Shown one piece after another: positions 5,419 through 22,620 of a stretch of DNA of 64,000 bases. The stretch spans positions 82,832,001 through 82,896,000 of the forward strand of contig NC_043006.1 in NCBI RefSeq assembly GCF_006345805.1. Reading direction: 5' to 3'. The translations under genes were made by a program, and so were the position numbers. Source of the stretch: Octopus sinensis. Taxonomy: Eukaryota. Numbering within the stretch: position 1 is the first letter of the stretch; the number at the start of each line of letters is the position of its first letter. The notes under the pieces were generated by a model that was given only the letters and a program-made list of their open reading frames with translations, ran no database searches and was not told where the DNA came from.

Positions 5419-8342
5419 CGACGGGCTTCTTTCAGTTTCCGTCTACCAAATCTACTTACAAGGCTTTGGTCGGCCTGAGGCTATAGTAGAAGACACTTGT
5501 CCAAGGTGTCACGCTGAGCTAAGTCACGAACAACACGGATTCTTCAATGTTGGTGCAATTATTAGGTCTCGCAATCTTTCATAGTGATTTCTCATTGGTC
5601 TTACTTTGCAAAATTTCCCCACCAAAACCTAAACTTCTTCAGGAACAGAAAGCAATTCAGTCCTGTTTACTGTGCTCAACTATCTTTTAACTTGTTCGTT
5701 TTGAAGGAAGCTCCTTTTCCCAAAATCATTGTAGACTTATTGAGTGCACTGCGACTGGCAATTACGTTTTTCCTGAATACATGCATGTCGATGATTGCAA
5801 GATAAAATACGCCCAATACAGCAAGTTCCAGAGGAACAATTGTTAATGTGAGACCTAGTGTGATATGGATACAATATGGCTAGTGAGAGAACAGACAAGT
5901 GGCTCAGGTGTGCTTGAGGGGAGGTAGCATGAGATAAGCAGATCAGAATGGGAAAAACCAGTGAAGTGCTAGTAGAAAAAGCAGAGAGAGTAATAGAGAG
6001 AGGGAGAGAGTGGAAGGGAGAGAGAGACAAAGGAGGGAGAGGGAGTGAGAAGAGTGGAGGGAGAGATGAGAGAGACGAGAGAGAGGAGGGAGCGACGCGA
6101 GAGAGGAGGGAGCGACGCGAGAGAGGAGAGAGAGAGAAAGGAGGGAGAGACGAGAGCGAGGAGAAGGTGTTGAGGTTTGAGGTAAGAGACTAAGTCTGCG
6201 TATGATTGATTGCAGTAATTCGCAAAACGATTATTCTTTGAATACGGTCTAAGATACCTACAGCAGCAACAGCCGTTCAAGAATTTGGATCTGAAGATCT
6301 CCATTTCCAGCGACTTCGAGGGCCACCTCCCAGTGGTGTCGGGCGACAACGAAGAGCCCTCGACTACAACAAGACGACCAAAGTTTTTTTTTCCAAGGTC
6401 TGGGGTCTCCCGCCCCTAAGCCCTAGACCATCATCTAATCACCCTTACCCGTCTTGTTGCTTAACAACAACAACAGCAGCAATAGCACAGTCGCATGTGT
6501 GAAGACAGTACTCCAGTTTGTTTTACTTGAACTTTATAGAAATTTGAAATGCAGTCTTTGTTTTAATATGGATGTGTACATGCTAGCAGAGATCCTCAGT
6601 ACTAGTAAGGCATTTTAGCAGTCACAAAATTCTCAGGTTTTATTTTGTTCATATTTAGGAGAGGAGGAAAGGAGTACGCTAATGTTTTCTTCGTTTGGGC
6701 AGTCATTTTTTAAATGACATTTTGCTGAAGAAGATTAAGCTGGCTTGGCTCCATTGGCGGATCTTCGCAAGGGCTCTACTCATGATTTTAGTGCAGATTT
6801 GGTTTGAAGTATCTAGAAGGGATACATACCGATGAGAGAAGCGGAATGAAAAGTGATTTTATTTACGTGGGACAAATAGATCAGTTTGTTTAATTAATGT
6901 TCTGCTTACATAGAACGACACAGCTTCTTTATACATCTTAGATCAGTGGTTCTGAAAGCGAGAAATACCATCACTACTCTGGAAATTTTTTTGTTACCTC
7001 GCTGTAATTAATAGGAGAAAATAAACTTTTTATTCATATAAGACTTCTTTCTTTGTCATGATACTTACATTCTTTCATTACTCTAATCTTTTACTTGTGT
7101 CAGTTACTAAAAGTGGTTGGGCTGGACCTCAATACACCATGCTTTTCACACGGACAGCTGTACGTGGGGTAGTCCAGAGTTGGAAACTCGGTCAATCTTT
7201 TCTACTACGCTACCGAAAAGCTGACAAAAAAAAAACGTGGTTTACAAGGCAGCCCACCAATAGTTTTTCCGTTGAGTTGAAATCCTCTTCAGGTTGGACC
7301 TTATTGCGCTTATTTACTCATCACGATAGATAATGTTAATCTTCTAATAAATGCCCGTTGTTAATGTCAGCTTCCCAGATGCCACCGACAATTTCATATT
7401 GCAATTGAACCTATTTCTTACAGATTGCCTTCATGTCCATAGAAATATCATGTATGCTTTTTGAAACCGATTCCTCAGCCATCCAGTTAATTAAATGGCA
7501 TTCCGAACGATAATTTTCAATATTTTCACATTTTAATACCCGATATCTGCGAATAAAACATGCTCCTTTTTGAATAGCACTTTTTTTTTATTTATCGTCC
7601 CAATAATGCCAAATAATCCTCAATTTTAAGCATAAACAGAAGCGGAATTACACTGTTTTAGACTTCAGTTCTATCACAAACTTACACCGTCCAATGGACG
7701 GCGGGGCGTTTGCTAGTATATTTATATATATGAATATATTATATATATATATATATATATATGGAGTATTTTGGAAATTCCTTGATACAGTTATAATATT
7801 TGGAGAGAAGATATTTTCTCAAAGAGCTAAGATTAAGACAAGAACCTTTTTAGAAAGTCAAAAGGTACTAACCTTTGGGAAGAGATTTCACAAAATGTGT
7901 GTAGCTTTTGCTTTTGTAGATGTGCGAGCGCTTTCAGTAATGAACGTTTTCAAGCACATGTTATTTCATACAGTGAAAGCTGTTTTGAGTAAACTTGTCA
8001 AATAAAACATCCCGCACTCAGATGCATACCATGTAGCGATCATTTGGACACCTGTGCACAAGGAAAATTTACAATTTTCCCTCTTCATATAATAAATGAA
8101 GAGATCGACCTTCTCCAGAAGGCAAAAGAAGAATATTTCATAAGATTTCTGAGTCCGAAACAAAACCGGAAATAGTCAATGACAATTTTACTGAAAACAA
8201 CTTTCACTACATGTAATAACATGATATTTCATGTTCCTGGATTGAAAACGCATAACTTTCAAAGTAAGAGTTAGTAATCCGATTGTTGGTCCATGTTGAT
8301 GATCAATGATATTATCATCCCGGAGCTTTGTATGTATGTATG

Positions 8343-8376
<34 letters not shown>

Positions 8377-9594
8377 TGTATGTATGTATGTATGTATGTA
8401 TGTATCTGCTAGAAAGTATCTGCTAGAAATAGTGACCAAATTCCCTGTGAACCTATATCATCGGTTCTCACCCGCAAAAAAAATAAGAAACAAAACTTTG
8501 GAACGGCACAGTCATATCAGAAAAATTTTCTTGATACTGCTGTTTGATTTCCAGAATACCTCTGATATCAACGGATGTGACATTTCAGTTTAAATGTTAC
8601 CAAATTCTCTCCATGCTCAACTTCCCCATGACCATCAATACGCCTCAAGAAAACTCAATGAAAGGCGCTAGAGTGAATCTTGTGGATAAAGTGCCCGTGT
8701 AAAACGTCTGTCTATTCACATAATCAGTTTTTTCATGTTACTTCAGCAGTGGAAAACACCTTAGTAACTTCCATAATAGCATCACAGGTCAAAAACAAGC
8801 AAGTATTCTTAGTCATGTCTTCATTCCAATGCCAAAAGGGTTGGATTTACTTTTACTCGTACGTTTTGCATTGAATAAGTAACCGAGGAATTTTTGCTGC
8901 AAACTCTACTTTACAGAGATAGTATTTTATTGTTCATTTAGTTGTAATGTGTGATAAAATCAGTAAATTATTGCATGTGATTACTTTGATATACAGTACC
9001 ATTCCCCAGGAGTAGCTGTGTGGTAAGTAGCTTGTTTACCAACCACATGGTTCTGGGTTCAGTCCCATTGCGTGTCATCTTGGGCAAGTGTCTTCTCGGG
9101 CCGACCAAAGCCTTGTGAGCAGATTTGGTAGGCGGAAACTGAAAGAAGCCTGTCGTATATATATATACATCCCCTAAAGTTGCTGGCCTTGTGCCAAAAT
9201 TTGAGACCATTATTATTACGCTAACGAAACGAATATTACACTGGATAACAAATTTCAATTTTTTTGTCTGTTGAGTTAAATTTGATAGTTCTAGGTAATT
9301 TGCATGCGGTAAGTACGAATTTTTGGTGCATCAGGTCCTCATTTTGAGTGACACCTTTTGAAAAAATTCTTAAAAGCAAGCTACTTATCGCTTTTGTTAC
9401 GCCGAGAAACAGGCGCCTGGCCGACCAACAATCACTTGACCCATTTTGCTCTGCATTCTGACGTCAAGTGTACATGTACAGGTACACTTGACTCACTTTG
9501 AATAGAAATAAGTAAGGTAAAAGTAATAAAATGATAGAGAAGAATGGTCCAACTGCATTTAACTTAAATGGTCCAACTGCATTTAACGTTAAAT

Positions 9595-9764
9595 GCAATT
9601 GTGTTTCCAAAACAGGTTAGGTGAGAACCTACTAACCATGGAACCGATTGTTACTTTTGCTTTATTGCTCGGTTATTTGTAACGTATGAATAAACTCAGT
9701 AGCTTACTGCATGGGATATATTGTATCGAAGTAATCACCTAACCTGCTTTGGAAACACAATTGC
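9595..9764. mobile_element. ~170-bp hairpin/MITE-like repeat; partial copies at ~12375-12497 (-) and ~13980-14020
   Basis: gcaattgtgtttccaaaacaggttaggtga / tcacctaacctgctttggaaacacaattgc. Confidence 0.65.
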
Positions 9765-9836
9765 TCTCGTGACGCATTATATATATATATAATATATATA
9801 TATAATATATATATATATATTTATTATATATATATT

Positions 9837-9869
<33 letters not shown>

Positions 9870-9872
9870 ATT

Positions 9873-9909
<37 letters not shown>

Positions 9910-9921
9910 ATATTATATATA

Positions 9922-9958
<37 letters not shown>

Positions 9959-10211
9959 CTATATATATATATATTTATATATAATTAATCAATATAGGGA
10001 GGCAAAAAAATTTTGTAGAATTCTTTTGCCCCCAGCGGCCTAGTGGGAAAAAATTAAATAGTCATAAACCATTTTTAAGTTCAATATCACAATCAAGGAA
10101 CGGCCATAATAGGCCATTCACCCACTAGAAATAACAGCCAAAAAGCTTCAACCGCAAAATAACATTAATTCTGTAAACCAGGAGAAAATTAAAAAAACAT
10201 TTACCCTGAAA

Positions 10212-10315
10212 TCCTTATACGATGCACCGTTTCGTCTACTGTTTAATGGTAAACTAACCTGATTAAATTAAATCAAGCCAATCTACCATAGGCCCTTAGA
10301 TTCATCAGTAAGGAA
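10212..10315 (-). ncRNA. Type-I hammerhead ribozyme motif, mirror copy in left arm of palindrome
   Basis: Reverse complement of 10370-10472; + strand reads tccttatacgatgcaccgtttcgtcta...tagattcatcagtaaggaa. Confidence 0.78.
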
Positions 10316-10369
10316 TAGCCAAATCGGAACAGATATTTTTCGTGAAAAATATCTGTTCCGATTTGGCTA

Positions 10370-10472
10370 TTCCTTACTGATGAATCTAAGGGCCTATGGT
10401 AGATTGGCTTGATTTAATTAATCAGGTTAGTTACCATTAAACAGTAGACGAAACGGTGCATCGTATAAGGAA
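10370..10472 (+). ncRNA. Type-I hammerhead ribozyme motif (Penelope-type), intact core, long stem II
   Basis: TTCCTTA-CTGATGA-ATCTA...(~56 nt)...TAGAC-GAAA-CGGTGCATC-GTA-TAAGGAA. 7-bp stem I, canonical core, quasi-palindromic stem III; predicted cut after 10465. Confidence 0.8.
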
Positions 10473-10603
10473 TTTCAGGGTAAATGTTTTTTTAATTTTC
10501 TCCTGGTTTACAGAATTAATGTTATTTTGCGGTTGAAGCTTTTTGGCTGTTATTTCTAGTGGGTGAATGGCCTATTATGGCCGTTCCTTGATTGTGATAT
10601 ATT

Positions 10604-10634
<31 letters not shown>

Positions 10635-10942
10635 TAAGGGTGAGAGAATTAGATACTAATTTAATAGTATATCTATTCAACACCAAGTGGCCTAGTGCTC
10701 CGAGAAACCTGGATTATTATAATATTTTATAACATATTATAATATTTTTACAAAATAAATATAAGAGAGTGGTCACTATATGGCTCACTCTAGCACCAGT
10801 TAATCCAAAAGGTTTCAACCACGAAAATACATGTTTCCCATGAGAGTCAATACGATTGTTAGCTCACACGGACAGGGCAAATAAACAATAACAAAAATAC
10901 AGAATAATCTGTATTTAGTGACCACTCTCTTATATTTATTTT

Positions 10943-11170
10943 ATATATATATATTATATATATATATATTTATATATATATTATATATATATATATTATA
11001 TAATATATTATATATATATATTTATATATATATATATATATATAATATATTTTATATATATATATATATATTTATATTATATATATATATATATAATATA
11101 TATTTATATATATATTATATATATTATTTATATATATATATTTATATATATATTTAATATATATTTATAT

Positions 11171-11201
<31 letters not shown>

Positions 11202-11237
11202 ATATATATATATTTCTATATATATATATTTATATAT

Positions 11238-11268
<31 letters not shown>

Positions 11269-11341
11269 ATATATTATATATATTATATATATATATATAT
11301 ATTATATAGATATATATATATATATATATTTATATATTATA

Positions 11342-11372
<31 letters not shown>

Positions 11373-11379
11373 ATAATAT

Positions 11380-11410
<31 letters not shown>

Positions 11411-11488
11411 TATATATATAATATATTATATATATTTATATATAATATATATTTATAATATATATATAATATATTATATATATATATA

Positions 11489-11534
<46 letters not shown>

Positions 11535-11541
11535 ATATTTC

Positions 11542-11576
<35 letters not shown>

Positions 11577-11643
11577 ATATATATATATTTATTATATATA
11601 TATATTTATATATATATATATATTATATTATTATATATATATT

Positions 11644-11678
<35 letters not shown>

Positions 11679-11704
11679 GATATATATATATATATATATA
11701 ATAT

Positions 11705-11788
<84 letters not shown>
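10943..11788. repeat. ~0.8-kb (TA)n followed by (TG)n
   Basis: Read directly from the sequence. Confidence 0.95.
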
Positions 11789-11791
<3 letters not shown>

Positions 11792-12058
11792 GCGCAATGG
11801 CCTAGTGGTTAGGGCAGCGAACTCGCGGTCGTAGGATCGTGGTTTCGATTCCAGACCGGGCGTTGTGTGTGTTTATTGAGCGAAAACACCTTAAAGCTCC
11901 ACGCTGCTGTACTCTTTCACCACTCTTCCTCCCACTCTTTCTTCTGTTGGCCTGCTCGCTTAGCCAGCGGGGTGGCGTCATTCGAAGGCTAAAACAATGC
12001 GAACGCATTGTGACCAGCGATGTGTAGCAACATCTGATGGTCTGGTCGGTCACGTGAT

Positions 12059-12066
<8 letters not shown>
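11789..12066 (+). mobile_element. tRNA-derived SINE; copies at 34799-35095 (-) and 29498-29660 (+, partial)
   Basis: A box tggcctagtgg, B box ggtttcgattcc; ends cacgtgatcacgtg next to (TA)n. Confidence 0.85.
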
Positions 12067-12122
<56 letters not shown>

Positions 12123-12202
12123 CTGGCAGGGTGAATTGCGTCATGTTGATGTTTTACTCAGACAGTGCTCAACTGACCCTACTATATATATATATATATA
12201 TA

Positions 12203-13324
12203 TCAGGGGTGATGGGTAAATTGTCGCCATTTTGAATTTCGCGCAAGCGCAGTTTTATAATAGTGTCAGTTGAGCACTGTCTGAGTAAAACAGCACCATA
12301 ACGCAATTCACCATGACGCACCATGGCGCAATTCACCTTGCCAGAAATATATATATATATAATGTATCGAAGTAATCCCATGCAGTAAGCTACTGATTTT
12401 ATCACACGTTACAAATAACCGAGCAATAAAGCAAAAGTAACAATCAGTTCCATGGTTAGTAGGTTCTCACCTAACCTGTTTTGGAAAAACAATTGCAGTT
12501 TTTTGTTTTGCCGCCTATACAGTATAGTAGGGTCAGTTGAGCACTGTTTGAGTAAAACAGCCGCATGACGCAATTCACCCTGCCAGAAATTTGGAAACGA
12601 CATTCTGTATTGCTTGGCATTCGCGCCGGAAGCTCCAATACGAACATTTCAGAGTATTTGGGTATCAATCTGAGGACAGTGCAATCTGTTGCCATGCACA
12701 GTGAGCGATAAAAGACACACATCTAGTCAACATCATGGTGTTTGGAGTGATCACTAGTGATGGAGACGTTATACCTTCATTCATCTTCCCTCACGGCCTC
12801 AGACTCAACACGGAGGCCTATATCGAGTTACTAGTGCAGGTAGCTCTATCCTTGGTTAAGAGGCTGGCTGCTGGAAGACCCTGTCTGGCAACAGGAATCT
12901 GCGCCATGCCACACATGCAGTAGAACTCGGTCATGGCTGTCAGACAATTTCTGCAGCCACGTCACTCCTAACATCTGGCCACCTAACTCCCCATACTGCA
13001 ACCCTCTTGGTTATTATGTGTGAGGCGCAGTTGAGCGAGGGAACAAAAAAAAACTCCTTGTAACACCAAAGATGAACTGAAGGCAAAGATTATGGCAGCA
13101 TTCATCAACTGAAATAAGGAGTCCGTCCAGAAAAGTTGCAGGAGATTCCGAAGTCGTCTGGAGGCCGTGGTTGAAGAAATAATGGCGTGTTTATTGAATA
13201 AATTTACTTTTTAGTATTTCAAGATATTTTTATATAATTTTGGTAAATATATCTGTTAAAATTAGATGTCTGTGTTATTTTCAGTTTTGCGTAATTTAGA
13301 CGACAGTTTATTCACCGCACTCTC
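12203..13324 (+). mobile_element. Internally deleted Tc1/mariner-superfamily transposon, DD37D (maT)-like
   Basis: MVFGVITSDG..; QQESAPCH..WPPNSP.CNPL with about 37 residues between the catalytic positions. Degenerate TIRs caggggtgatgggtaaattgtcg / cgacagtttattcaccgcactct in TA context. Confidence 0.72.
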
Positions 13325-17963: not shown

Positions 17964-20900
17964 ATTTGCTGCGGAGTACGTCGGACGTGTTTTCGAACGC
18001 TCGAAGTAAGTCCTCGTTATATTTGTTGTTTACAGCCGTTTGGTGCTGTTTGTGCTTAAAATTTTAATCCCAGAGCATTACTAAAAACTGCAGGAACCCG
18101 GTGCTGGGTTTCCTGAGGTTGTTTAGTCACGTAAGTGGCAAATTTTGGCCCTTCAGAAAATCGCCTGAGAGCCGTTTAATAACAATAATTTTATAAAGAA
18201 GGTGGTGTCCACTCTAAAGCTTTTGAATGGAAAATTAGTTACTCTCCCCAGCCTTCTTGCAGCTGAAGACTTCCCTCCTCTTTTCTCTGTTACTCACAAC
18301 GATTCAGGAGAAGGGGAAGCGAAATCGCAGAGGGGAAAACTACAAAGTCCACCTCGCAACAGCAACAGTGAAGGGGAAAGCAGCAGCTACAGTGGCAGTA
18401 TCGACAACAGTCGTGGTAGCAGTGACAGCAGCAGCGGAAGCAGTGACAACAGCAGCAGCAGCAGTAGTAGGATTAGCGGCAACAATACGAGCAGCAGCAA
18501 TAGCAGAAGTGGTAGTAATGACAGTAGTAGCAGAGACAGCAGTTTCAAAGAAAGTGGCGGTAATAGTAGTGGTGAGGGTAGCAACAATCGACGTGGCCAT
18601 AATTCCACCACCACCACCAACAACAACAACTAAACCAAAAGGTTTGCCGACGTCATGAGCACAAGAGAGAAATATTTTCAATCACACTCGATGAGAAAAC
18701 ACGAAACCTTTCAGAATCAAACAGCATTATTAAACTTGAGGTGGGTAAGGCAGCAGAAATTATAAAGACAAAAGAAAAGAAGACGGTCTATTTTAGATGC
18801 GTATCACGCAAAAGTCACATTGAGAAGGCACTAAAAGAAATTTTGATAGACGTGGCCCATATACAGTGAGTGAGGCAGTTTGCCAACATTGAGATCCTCT
18901 TTAAAAGCAAGGACCTCGTACGAAGAAACGCAGTGTCACACCGGTGGACTGAGGAGTGTGTCCATTATCCCACCTACCTCTCAAAGATAGCAGGTGTGCC
19001 GCTGGACGTAAACGTCTGGTGGATTGTTGTCTGTGTGGTGCAGGACCCAAAGTCACTCAAGAAGGTAAAACGGAGCAGCAGAGAGAATTCGTTTGGGATA
19101 AACATGGAAATATTTATGCATGTAAAAACATAGACTATCGAAAAGATCCCGGACCTGATCCAGCTGCCCAACTGGATGAAACTGCATGTTGTTATGAAAG
19201 GCGGGAAGCCCAGATGTAATAACTGCGGGATCACAAACCACCTCAGAGGCTTCTGTCCCTAAAAGTTGGGAAATATGCGGCCATGCCTGCTGCCTACATA
19301 GCATCCCCAATAAAAGCAACAGCAATAACAGAGGCACGTGAACCCCATACAATGGAGAAAACCACCCAGGGTGTCTCTCAATCCAGACCCCTCACCCCTC
19401 TGTCAAGCATACACTTACACAGACACGTTCACACTATCACAAACACACTTATATTCCCCGAGATAGATCCTACAGACATGAGTCCCTCCTCATCCTGTGA
19501 TGAAAACGAGGGCGAGCCTTACAAAAAAGAAGAAGAAAAAAAGCTAAAAAGACAAAGGAAAAAGAAAACAAATGAACGTACACCAACAACTGAAAACATA
19601 GCAAAAACAACACCAGCATCAACATGCCACAACCACTACCACCCCAACCAACTCCATCAATGCACTCACAATCATACATAGCCCCCAAAAGAAAGGTCAT
19701 ACTCACAAATACAGAAACACCCAATTACGTGCTGGTGAGGAGAGCCAACAAAATTTTGATGGCCCTCATAGTCAGAAACAAGGAGATTGAGAGCACCCTT
19801 AGGGTTCCGGATGACTTAATGCTAATTCGGTTACCCCTCAAAGTGTACGAAGGCATTCAAATGTTGGAAAACCAAGTGTCTGTCTCACGAAGAGGCTATT
19901 AAGCAATTTCACAGAGGAACCACGATCAGATCTGGAGCCCGGGTCAACAGGTAGCCAACAGCTTCAGGAGGGCAAGTAACTCCATTCTTTTTCTTTTCTT
20001 GAACCCTTTCGAGCCATCATGAATATTATCAGAGTGGGCTGCATAAATAATCGCGGCCTAAGATCACCCTGGAAGCAAGGTCACTAGCTCAATGACCTCA
20101 GGTCGCTAGGGTTGGATGTGATAGCAGCTAAGAAGACCTGGATTTCTGACACACGCGATCTGGCACTCATTTTCGACAATTATGAGATCTTCGCATCTCT
20201 TAGTCGGTCCAGAATGGGTGGCTGGGTGGCAGTGCTGCTTAGGAAAAGCCTGAATCTCGAGCTTCAGACGATTTTCCTGGACCCGGCGGGTAAGTTGGTG
20301 GTCCTAGTTGTGAGTAACAGCGAAGGAGATGCCTTTAGACTAGTCGCTGTTTACATCCCTACGGGGGAGGAGTAACCAGATTTCTTCAGACGTTTGGATG
20401 TTTTCCTTGGGACATCGCGCTCTTTAATGTTAGTAGGCGATTGAAACGCCATCTTGAACACACGCCTGGATAAGGCATGGCTAGCTAGTAGGAGAAGGGG
20501 GTGTAAAAGCCTCACAAACCTGCTCAGTGGCTTCTCGTTGGCTGACAGGTGCCGAGTGAATTTCCTGAATGCGTAAATGCGGACATGGGCAAACTGCTTT
20601 GGGTCTTCCAGATTGTATCTCGATTGAGTATTTAGTAGGCTTGTAAATAGAAGTAGTATAAGTTGTCTTCAGTTCAAAGTCGTCAGCTACACGGACCATA
20701 AATTTGCGATCTGTACGGTCGGCATAAATAGGATCCATAGACAGGGCTCTGGATTCTGGAAGCTGAACGCATCCTTCCCGGCGCACCAAGTTCTCAGAGG
20801 CCGGGTTAACAAGTTTGTCCATAGGAAGTTGGCGGGTGCAATCGTCAACAACCGATGCTGAATAACCCTGAAAAGGGCTATTAGAGTAGACGCGCTAAGT

Positions 20901-22620
20901 TTTAGTCAGAAAATAGTGTTAGAGGAATCTAGGATAGAGGGAGACCTAGTTAAGAAGCTAGAAGAGGTGCTTCTGATTGGCATAGCGACCGACGTGCTGG
21001 CGGCGAGATTGACTATTGGTCAGTTCTTCAATACCAAGGACGAAGGTCGTTTTATCAGAGTTATAGCGCGTGCACTGAGATGGGAAGGTGACGCGCAGAC
21101 TTGCGTTATCCCAAACAGAACTATCCATTACAACCTTTGCCTCACGCGCTACATCAAAAAGAGGGTGGGTAGGGTGCCTGGCATGGATGGGGTTGTGATC
21201 AATTTGGATCAATTGAAAGCTTTTGATAAGGTCGACCACCAATACCTGGAGGATGTTCTCGCGGAAGAGGGTTTCGGTCCTGTTTTCAGACGCTGGATCG
21301 CTGCAGTGCACAGCGAATTCTGTTCGGTGGTCAGAGTAAATGGCCACCTATCGGAATCATTTAGCATCGTTCATTCGGTCCGTTAACGATGCCGACTCTC
21401 GCCTCTTCTTTACGTACTGGCTTTCGAGCCATTGCTGCGGAAGCTGGATGTTTCGAGGGGCATCCCGCATGATCTAGGATGCAGTAGTTTCATGTCGGCT
21501 ATGCAGACGACGTCACCGTAATAGTATCGGATATCTCTGAAATGAGGTTGTCGGCATTGCCTTGAGGGAGTACGAAGCAGTGACCGGAGCAAAGATTAAT
21601 CAGGAAAATTGGGTGGGCTTGATACCTGGAAAGGAAGGTCCATGCAACAGACTGAACGGAAGGACCGATTAAATTGTTCGTGGTCTAGTTTCGTCCAGAC
21701 CTCTAGGTGAATAAGAACTGAGAGAGGAGATAACAAATAGGGTGGCCGATCTCACCCAGAAACGAGTAGACAAGAATCTGTCTCTGAAGGGTCAGGCGTA
21801 CATCGCTTCAGTCATCTTGCTCCACTTGCCTGATAAAGCTGGAGAGCTTGCTCTTTCGCTTTCTGTGAAAGGAACGTGTTCCGCTCGTCAGACGATCCAT
21901 CTGCTGTCAACAGCAGCTGAGTGGAGGACTGGGCATGCCGTGGTTAGTGATGTCCAGGCATGCGCTGAGGCTGCAAGATCTCAAGTGGTTTTCTTAACGG
22001 TGAGCAGGTGTGGTCGATGTTTGTTAAACGGGATTTTCCGCTGCTCATTTCATTGCCTCTTTGATGGAGCTGCAGTTCTGGGTCGAACTAGACTTCTTTT
22101 AGCCGAGAGGGAAAGACAGTTTTTCTCTGTTTCGTGGTTATAGCGAAAGAGGTAACGTGGTGGACGAGGCTGAAAGGACTGAAGACAGACAGAATCTTCT
22201 CTGGTCAAGCCCTCATCGACTTTTTCAAGTGGAACTTGAAAAGGAAAGTGAGAGTGGAGAGGGAAGTACTGCCTCCCTTCTCCAGTAATTTTGTTGAAAG
22301 GTGGGTGAACGTTGCGAAAATCGCTCGTGAAAATGGGCCTACTCTGAATATTCACCTATAAGCCGGAGCAATTGAGGGAAGAGGGGTGCCTACTTGACGT
22401 GCCCCTGGTAGTCGGGGTGACCTGGATGTGTAGGGCGACCTTGTTGGCCCTGGGCGAAACTCCCCTGTATTGGAGAATTTTGTTGTTAGAATCTTTTGTT
22501 AACTGTTTTTGTTTTATATTGTTTACACAATTTCTGTTTTAAAACCCACTTATCTCTTGTTTAGTATTGTCCCTTTATGTTTTTTGTGTTCGGCCCTTGT
22601 GTCCAATAAAGAAAGAATTA
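17964..22620 (+). mobile_element. Decayed Tx1/L1-clade LINE (ORF1 with CCHC knuckle; ORF2 APE-RT)
   Basis: RCNNCGITNH near 19215; MNIIRVGCINNRGL near 20019; GSGFWKLNAS; INLDQLKAFDKVDHQYL; LSPLLYVLA; YADDV; ends aataaagaaag. Many stops. Related 3' tails at ~17130-17430 (+) and ~40150-40340 (-). Confidence 0.85.

What the first reader, a model, noticed from the sequence alone, without database searches (positions are those of the whole stretch)
10084..10600. Giant palindrome carrying two intact, outward-facing hammerhead ribozymes
Seen: a ~517-bp palindrome between (TA)n tracts. Each arm carries a type-I hammerhead with 7-bp stem I (TTCCTTA/TAAGGAA on the right arm; 6 bp on the left), CTGATGA and GAAA boxes, a GTA site and a quasi-palindromic CGGTGCATCG stem III. 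No ORF is nearby. Established: Penelope-like retroelements carry minimal hammerheads with palindromic stem III in their terminal repeats and often form inverted structures. Inference: this is a young non-autonomous ribozyme element made by fold-back replication. A transcript from either strand holds one sense ribozyme that competes with a ~258-bp hairpin, which would also be an ADAR/Dicer substrate.
Basis: partly seen in the sequence, partly recalled or inferred. Interest (0 to 1): 0.8.

Follow-up and report, generated by a model that had tools for sequence, protein, structure and literature searches.

The report
Head-to-head hammerhead retrozyme insertion
The palindrome is one of hundreds of insertions of a 491-base, non-coding repeat that carries a hammerhead-ribozyme motif; its two head-to-head arms always end at two fixed points 103 bases apart, likely because a Penelope-type reverse transcriptase copies the RNA onto both strands of the target at once, which would explain how such elements form inverted structures.

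Summary
The palindrome and both type-I hammerhead motifs are real, but this is not a stand-alone fold-back element. In 84 of 84 insertions with both ends classed, the arms are head-to-head, one ending 135 and the other ~238 nt past the cut site; 85 of 88 sit in (TA)n. In 34 of 84 neither arm could be copied from the other, against simple fold-back; twin priming on both target strands at two reverse-transcription start sites fits best (inferred). Copies show compensatory changes in stems I-III, and stem III pairs only as a dimer. Young intact Penelope-like elements with the same two-end architecture exist here, and one insertion is a chimera with one of them. Known kind (non-LTR retrozyme, Penelope insertion signature); new are the long tail and the strict one-long, one-short rule.

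The parts
9981..10341 (-). Left arm: 5'-truncated copy of the 491-bp unit (unit positions 369-492 + 1-238, counted from the ribozyme cut), ending at the long end
   Evidence: BLAST of a natural unit (L008:1627-2118) against the window, 98.7-100%
9981..10083 (-). 103-bp tail (unit 136-238), present on the left arm only
   Evidence: long-end junction pattern found 880 times in G000
10340..10600 (+). Right arm: 5'-truncated copy (unit 365-492 + 1-135), ending at the short end
   Evidence: short-end junction pattern found 487 times in G000
10340..10343 (.). Head-to-head junction, 2-nt microhomology; the two central bases belong to the right arm
   Evidence: 34-nt junction occurs once in G000
10369..10473 (+). 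Type-I hammerhead motif: 8-bp stem I, core 10377-10383, A10.1 (10384) opposite C11.1 (10449), long stem II, palindromic stem III, predicted cut after 10465
10210..10316 (-). Second hammerhead motif, same sequence; predicted cut between 10218 and 10217; one A missing from stem I relative to the family
9778..9980 (.). (TA)n target tract, left
   Evidence: sequence
10601..10629 (.). Short (TA)n run, right
   Evidence: sequence
10622..10945 (.). Neighbouring insertion of a second family (B, ~535-bp unit) with the same head-to-head, long-end/short-end layout; this copy lacks the ribozyme core
   Evidence: 96% to L063, which carries a long-stem-II hammerhead motif

Best explanation
The palindrome is a single insertion of a 491-bp non-coding tandem repeat with one hammerhead motif per unit, likely pasted into a (TA)n tract by a Penelope-like element's enzyme that would prime reverse transcription on both target strands at two fixed internal start sites. 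Shown: the family, its two fixed ends (135 and ~238 nt past the cut site), the head-to-head layout with one end of each kind, TA targets, variable 5' junctions and ribozyme covariation. Inferred: a multimeric or circular RNA is bound by a Penelope RT/GIY-YIG protein (probably a dimer); each nicked strand primes cDNA, one from the long site and one from the short site; both cDNAs stop early and are joined by a few nucleotides of microhomology. Here both stopped within 4 nt of each other, giving a near-perfect palindrome. The ribozyme is predicted to work as a dimer through its palindromic stem III in tandem transcripts; in this locus a read-through transcript meets the antisense arm first, so it would be trapped.
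For: Tandem arrays at 99% identity; 417 and 481 exact motif copies; 487 short and 880 long ends. 84 of 84 insertions with both ends classed have one long and one short end, 43 long-left and 41 short-left (105 insertions examined); 85 of 88 inverted insertions have TA on both sides. 34 of 84 have neither arm contained in the other. Of 48 junctions that resolved without inserted bases, 34 overlap by 2-10 nt. Autonomous element p68 (775-aa RT + GIY-YIG) shows the same layout in 7 of 8 inverted pairs, its short end lies about 140 nt past its own hammerhead cut, and L218 joins a p68 long-end arm to a family short-end arm, with the switch 3 nt from the other arm's start. In vitro a Penelope protein nicks and extends both strands and starts at two internal sites that bound the tail (PMC11167929). 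Covariation; unconstrained two-molecule fold gives the double hammerhead (-72.7 vs -61.4).
Against: No DNA similarity between the unit and either autonomous family; the partner rests on one chimera. 12 of 84 junctions are within 10 nt of symmetric (3.6 expected, p about 2e-4) and arm lengths correlate (rho 0.52), which independent priming does not predict. 50 of 84 insertions are also compatible with copy-back. 17 of 105 insertions show one arm only in BLAST and 4 have an unclassed end; 5 of the 17 show tiny inverted remnants that fit the rule. One p68 pair has two long ends (L260). Tail is 103 bp against 30-40 bp reported. Stem II closing pair is never G-C in 283 units. No cleavage, strand or circle data.
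Confidence: 0.7

Rival explanations
1. Same family and enzyme, but the inversion arises by self-priming or copy-back: one cDNA folds on itself (or an antisense RNA self-primes) and the hairpin is resolved by staggered cuts that leave the tail on one side, with later deletions around the centre.
For: Excess of near-symmetric junctions, 12 of 84, this locus among them, and correlated arm lengths; unit-specific variants in mirror position in L140 and L142; self-priming was proposed for head-to-head Penelope palindromes (PMC3846280).
Against: 34 of 84 insertions have neither arm contained in the other; here the central 2 nt read as the short arm's cDNA, which holds no template for the tail; L218 has arms from two different RNAs.
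Confidence: 0.2
2. The ribozyme motif in this youngest subfamily is decayed and plays no part: arrays are copied from uncut multimeric transcripts, and the A-C mismatch marks relaxed selection.
For: 10.1-11.1 is A-C in 116, A-A in 51, U-U in 23 and A-U in 83 of 283 units; monomer is predicted to misfold; 6 of 27 arrays have variants in only some units; cleavage was dispensable for insertion in vitro (PMC11167929); 8 of 9 Xenopus retrozymes did not cleave in vitro (bioRxiv 10.64898/2026.07.22.740005).
Against: Core boxes nearly invariant apart from the free N7 position, compensatory changes in stems I, II and III across subfamilies; natural U-U at this pair is active (PMC3088659; PMC7229834); units within an array differ by a median 2 substitutions against 6 between arrays.
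Confidence: 0.3
3. The palindrome is a chimeric fold-back artefact of long-read assembly.
For: Arms nearly identical; no listed short-read contig bridged this centre (table cut).
Against: Arms end at different element positions with different flanks; the same layout recurs in 84 insertions with different junctions; a head-to-head joint of this family stands in a public run's contigs (X1).
Confidence: 0.03

Closest known systems
Animal non-LTR retrozymes (Cervera and de la Pena 2020, PMC7229834; Li, Clavereau and Pollet 2026, bioRxiv 10.64898/2026.07.22.740005)
   Same: Non-coding, low-GC (36%) tandem units, one type-I hammerhead per unit, dispersed arrays, palindromic stem III predicted to need a dimer, co-occurrence with Penelope-like elements.
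   Different: Unit 491 bp (above the ~170-400 nt of the 2020 paper, inside the 51-972 range of the 2026 preprint); 66-68-nt stem II, 10-nt palindrome in stem III, mismatched 10.1-11.1; arrays here are bounded by fixed ends and inverted. No homology to an autonomous pLTR found. Circular RNA not shown.
Insertion structure of endonuclease-bearing Penelope-like elements (Arkhipova 2013, PMC3846280; Craig 2021, PMC8557442; Frangieh 2024, PMC11167929)
   Same: Partial tandems, inverted 5'-truncated copy head-to-head, tail at one end, TA-microsatellite targets, two internal start sites.
   Different: No ORF; tail 103 bp rather than 30-40; the one-long, one-short pairing is strict (84 of 84), where the papers call the tail optional or often at one end.
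Opposite-strand pairs of minimal hammerheads 100-700 bp apart in Schistosoma (Cervera and de la Pena 2014, PMC4209133)
   Same: Two hammerheads on opposite strands within a few hundred bases, from truncated Penelope-type ends.
   Different: Those are minimal motifs with G10.1-C11.1; here a large stem II and a whole retrozyme family are involved.
LINE-1 twin priming
   Same: Both target strands prime cDNA; the two are joined by microhomology into an inversion.
   Different: In LINE-1 the second primer anneals at variable internal sites and the arms do not overlap; here both start sites are fixed and the arms overlap fully.

Membership tests
Type-I hammerhead ribozyme | Core boxes CUGANGA, GAAA and NUH site | tested here: met
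   Both arms; 274 of 283 family units have CTGA[T/A/C]GA, 274 GAAA, H17 A in 275 and C in 6
Type-I hammerhead ribozyme | Stems I-III supported by compensatory change | tested here: met
   Stem I A-U/G-C 249/29 and C-G/U-A 177/89; stem II U-A/C-G 253/21, A-U/G-C 223/53; stem III second palindrome in 19 units; 6 pairs changed on both sides in 12 hand-picked variants, 2 of 500 shuffles as high (relatedness not controlled)
Type-I hammerhead ribozyme | Paired 10.1-11.1 (usually G-C) | tested here: not met
   A-C in both arms; G at 10.1 in 0 matches in G000 against 481 with A (one search gave one deletion variant); A-U in 83 of 283 units
Type-I hammerhead ribozyme | Self-cleavage at the NUH site | not testable with these tools
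   Only contigs were available
Type-I hammerhead ribozyme | Loop 1-loop 2 tertiary contact | not tested
   A 7x7 internal loop in stem II is predicted; contacts not examined
Non-LTR retrozyme | Tandem units each with a type-I hammerhead | tested here: met
   Family arrays of 1-9 units; this copy itself has less than one unit per arm
Non-LTR retrozyme | Non-coding, GC below 50% | tested here: met
   GC 36%; longest Met-ORF 85 aa on either strand of an array
Non-LTR retrozyme | Expressed as linear and circular monomer RNA | tested here: inconclusive
   Family sequence lies in contigs of two runs guessed to be RNA (X9, X17); contigs show no ends, strand or circles
Non-autonomous Penelope-like element | Head-to-head inverted 5'-truncated copy, tail at one end, AT-rich target | tested here: met
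Non-autonomous Penelope-like element | Sequence shared with the pseudo-LTR of an autonomous element | tested here: not met
   No significant match in 66 GIY-YIG loci, 30 p68 end loci, or the p68/p61 units; other Penelope families may be unsampled
Non-autonomous Penelope-like element | Mobilised in trans by a Penelope protein | tested here: inconclusive
   One chimeric insertion, L218

The most novel reading that the evidence does not exclude
Penelope-type integration is obligate twin priming: a dimeric enzyme starts cDNA on each target strand from a different fixed site of the RNA, so tail and inversion are one event; this retrozyme family rides the p68 element's enzyme, with two RNAs held together by the ribozyme's palindromic stem III, which could pair the templates whether or not it cuts.
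Probability: 0.4. Interest if true: 0.7.

Novelty: new variant of a known kind. Interest (0 to 1): 0.48.

Why it matters
The locus itself is a dead-end insertion. The family is useful because it is young, abundant and has sharp ends: it gives a genomic rule (one long and one short end, head-to-head, 84 of 84) for how Penelope-like elements build their inverted structures, a step left open by the in vitro study, and a direct lead (a chimeric insertion, intact candidate enzymes in the same genome) that animal retrozyme arrays are inserted ready-made by Penelope enzymes rather than grown locally. Both can be tested with an existing assay. It also offers natural hammerheads with A-C, A-A, U-U and A-U at the stem-II closing pair and a long stem II that Rfam misses.

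Tried and rejected
Rfam scan of 8000-13000: no hammerhead family, 17 sub-threshold hits. Palindrome as a replicating unit: rejected, centre unique. Homology to an autonomous pLTR: none found. Read support for this centre: inconclusive; four runs laid, all contigs, piece table cut. A-to-I editing that would turn A10.1-C11.1 into a pair: one contig of run X17 (RNA guessed) has G at 10384 (724 of 2828 depth), but a DNA-guessed run of another organism label also has it (625 of 897,950) and no matched DNA exists; G000 has no such copy; kept only as a weak lead. Rolling-circle copying of a monomer: only 3 of 27 arrays have a strictly private variant fixed in all units and 6 of 27 are heterogeneous, so not established. 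Target-site duplications: 1 direct and 1 inverted flank match in 88, not informative in TA tracts. The 880 versus 487 end counts are not a test of pairing, because the short-end pattern misses older subfamilies. Atlas search placed p68 among unnamed GIY-YIG/RT clusters without a clade name. Look-ups of earlier findings by sequence and by seven words gave nothing.

Full report
Observation. The stretch 10084-10600 is its own reverse complement except for three 1-nt indels and a 2-nt centre. Each arm has a type-I hammerhead motif facing outward: CTGATGA at 10377 (+) and 10308 (-), GAAA, stem III CGGTGCATCG and a GTA site. A descriptor with these features gives 2 hits in the window and none in 100 shuffles. 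Three points need correcting. The left arm continues to 9981, so the insertion is 361 + 261 nt and asymmetric. Stem I is 8 bp on the right; the short left stem and the two other arm differences are single-base deletions in short runs relative to the family, probably assembly errors. The pair that closes stem II is A-C, not G-C, and stem II holds 66-68 nt that fold into 4 pairs, a 7x7 loop and a 19-bp hairpin. Rfam reports no hammerhead.

Family. The window lies on contig C10 of a 2.72-Gb genome. One arm has 2360 first-look candidates; the best 40 are 99% identical and lie in tandem arrays with a 491-bp period. Exact motifs count 417 (3' half of the ribozyme) and 481 (5' half); end-junction patterns count 487 and 880. 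These are lower bounds. The unit is 36% GC with no Met-ORF above 85 aa. The 34-nt centre occurs once, so the palindrome is not itself the replicating unit. Family sequence is present in public runs under five organism labels and one feces metagenome.

Architecture. I mapped 105 insertions in 102 loci, after dropping 3 duplicated loci (L125, L214, L215); loci were the best hits and the first listed matches, mostly on C1-C3, so not a random sample. Counting from the predicted cut, arms end at ~135 (short) or ~235-238 (long). In 84 insertions both ends could be classed: all 84 are head-to-head with one long and one short end, 43 long-left and 41 short-left. 17 show one arm only and 4 have one unclassed end; 5 of the 17 carry tiny inverted remnants of the missing kind. 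85 of 88 inverted insertions have TA on both sides. 5' junctions fall all over the unit; 48 of 84 resolved without inserted bases and 34 of these overlap by 2-10 nt; the other 36 have inserts or failed to anchor (the method leans upward). The window's copy is one of 12 of 84 with junctions within 10 nt of symmetric (3.6 expected).

Ribozyme. In 283 units the core is conserved, N7 varies freely, and stems covary: stem I A-U/G-C 249/29 and C-G/U-A 177/89; stem II U-A/C-G 253/21 and A-U/G-C 223/53. Stem III is CGGTGCATCG in 247 and another palindrome, CGGTATACCG, in 19; the change includes two adjacent bases that can pair only between two molecules. A formal count on 12 chosen variants gave 6 pairs changed on both sides, 2 of 500 shuffles as high, none in slid controls (kinship not controlled). 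One molecule is predicted to misfold (-30.7 against -27.8 for the active form); two fold unconstrained into the double hammerhead (-72.7 against -61.4). Against full activity: 10.1-11.1 is A-C 116, A-U 83, A-A 51, U-U 23, never G-C. At this locus any read-through transcript makes the antisense arm first and a hairpin of about -447 kcal/mol, so cutting here is unlikely (inference).

Partner. G000 holds thousands of GIY-YIG candidates, among them two young families with open 781-aa (p61) and 775-aa (p68) frames carrying RT and C-terminal GIY-YIG and a cysteine linker of the Neptune/Nematis type (seen; clade label from PMC8557442, not tested by a tree). Both end in (TA)n at two positions some 25-40 nt apart; 7 of 8 inverted p68 pairs have one long and one short end (chosen by their long end). 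p68 has its own hammerhead motif with U-U at 10.1-11.1, and its short end lies about 140 nt past the cut, like 135 here. Neither shares DNA similarity with the unit. One insertion, L218, has a p68 3' part with the long end as left arm, switching into unit position 326, while the right arm starts at 329 and ends at the short end. This points to p68 as mobiliser but is a single case, and a nested insertion with deletion is not excluded.

Mechanism. In vitro a Penelope-like protein nicks and extends both strands of AT-rich DNA, starts at two internal RNA sites that bound the tail, is predicted to be a dimer, and does not need ribozyme cleavage (PMC11167929, parts 1-2 of 4 read). The strict pairing seen here follows if each strand uses a different site and the two cDNAs are joined by microhomology. 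Copy-back requires one arm to lie within the other; 38 of 84 allow short within long, 12 long within short, 34 neither (20 nt slack). The excess of symmetric junctions, correlated arm lengths (rho 0.52) and mirror variants in L140 and L142 keep copy-back with later central deletion alive. Whether the template is a circle is open: units differ by a median of 2 substitutions within and 6 between arrays, but only 3 of 27 arrays have a strictly private fixed variant and 6 are heterogeneous.

Reads. Only contigs were served. No listed contig bridged this centre, with the table cut; run X1 holds a different head-to-head joint; two runs guessed to be RNA hold family sequence, X17 mostly the A-U subfamily. 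This neither confirms this junction nor shows expression from this locus.

Known and new. Inverted copies, one-sided tails and microsatellite targets are described for Penelope-like elements (PMC8557442 and PMC3846280, passages), opposite-strand hammerhead pairs in Schistosoma (PMC4209133, parts 1-2 of 4), and tandem retrozymes in animals including a mussel (PMC7229834, passages and one section; bioRxiv 10.64898/2026.07.22.740005, parts 1-3 of 5). A mismatch at 10.1-11.1 is known for U-U (PMC3088659, passages). I found no paper on a cephalopod retrozyme, on twin priming in Penelope elements, or on head-to-head retrozyme arrays in listings; the library is open-access only and no supplements were read, which may list such families. 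Earlier scan notes on other genomes report the same layout; they are leads, not support. Verdict: real, a new variant of a known kind, interest 0.48.

Noticed in passing
window 10622-10945; L063:6264-7375; L210:1800-2341: Second hammerhead-repeat family (B, ~535-bp unit, 51-nt stem II, G-C closing pair) with the same head-to-head long/short layout and a tail of roughly 125 bp; shares short motifs with family A near the long end.
   Followed up: partly
window 9591-9717 and 12375-12500: 95% inverted pair of 127 bp flanking the whole TA cluster; further short TA-bounded repeats at 12119-12186, 12256-12315, 12523-12590. Possibly other small Penelope-type ends.
   Followed up: no
window 10384 in run X17: One contig of a run guessed to be RNA has G at position 10.1 (26% of depth there); G000 has no such copy. 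Minor subfamily or A-to-I editing that would restore the stem II pair.
   Followed up: partly
L061-L065 (e.g. L061:5860-5895): The young p61 Penelope-like family has an upstream 479-aa ORF and a minimal hammerhead-like motif with the U3-A8 core variant in its 3' end.
   Followed up: partly
L008 flanks: The flanks of this insertion are inverted copies of each other, 1 of 88; the target may itself be a palindrome.
   Followed up: no
window 35304-35864 and 27637-28137, minus strand: Exons of a probable paired-type homeobox gene: a WFKNRRAK stretch (motif recalled) and a weak OAR match below cut-off; the finding lies about 17 kb downstream.
   Followed up: partly
window 11785-12060, with copies near 29493, 30466, 35097: Dispersed repeat with a tRNA-like start, probably a SINE (label recalled; copies).
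   Followed up: no
window 40695-53251 and 20862-22143: Several broken non-LTR retrotransposon frames (weak zf-RVT match), unrelated to the finding.
   Followed up: no
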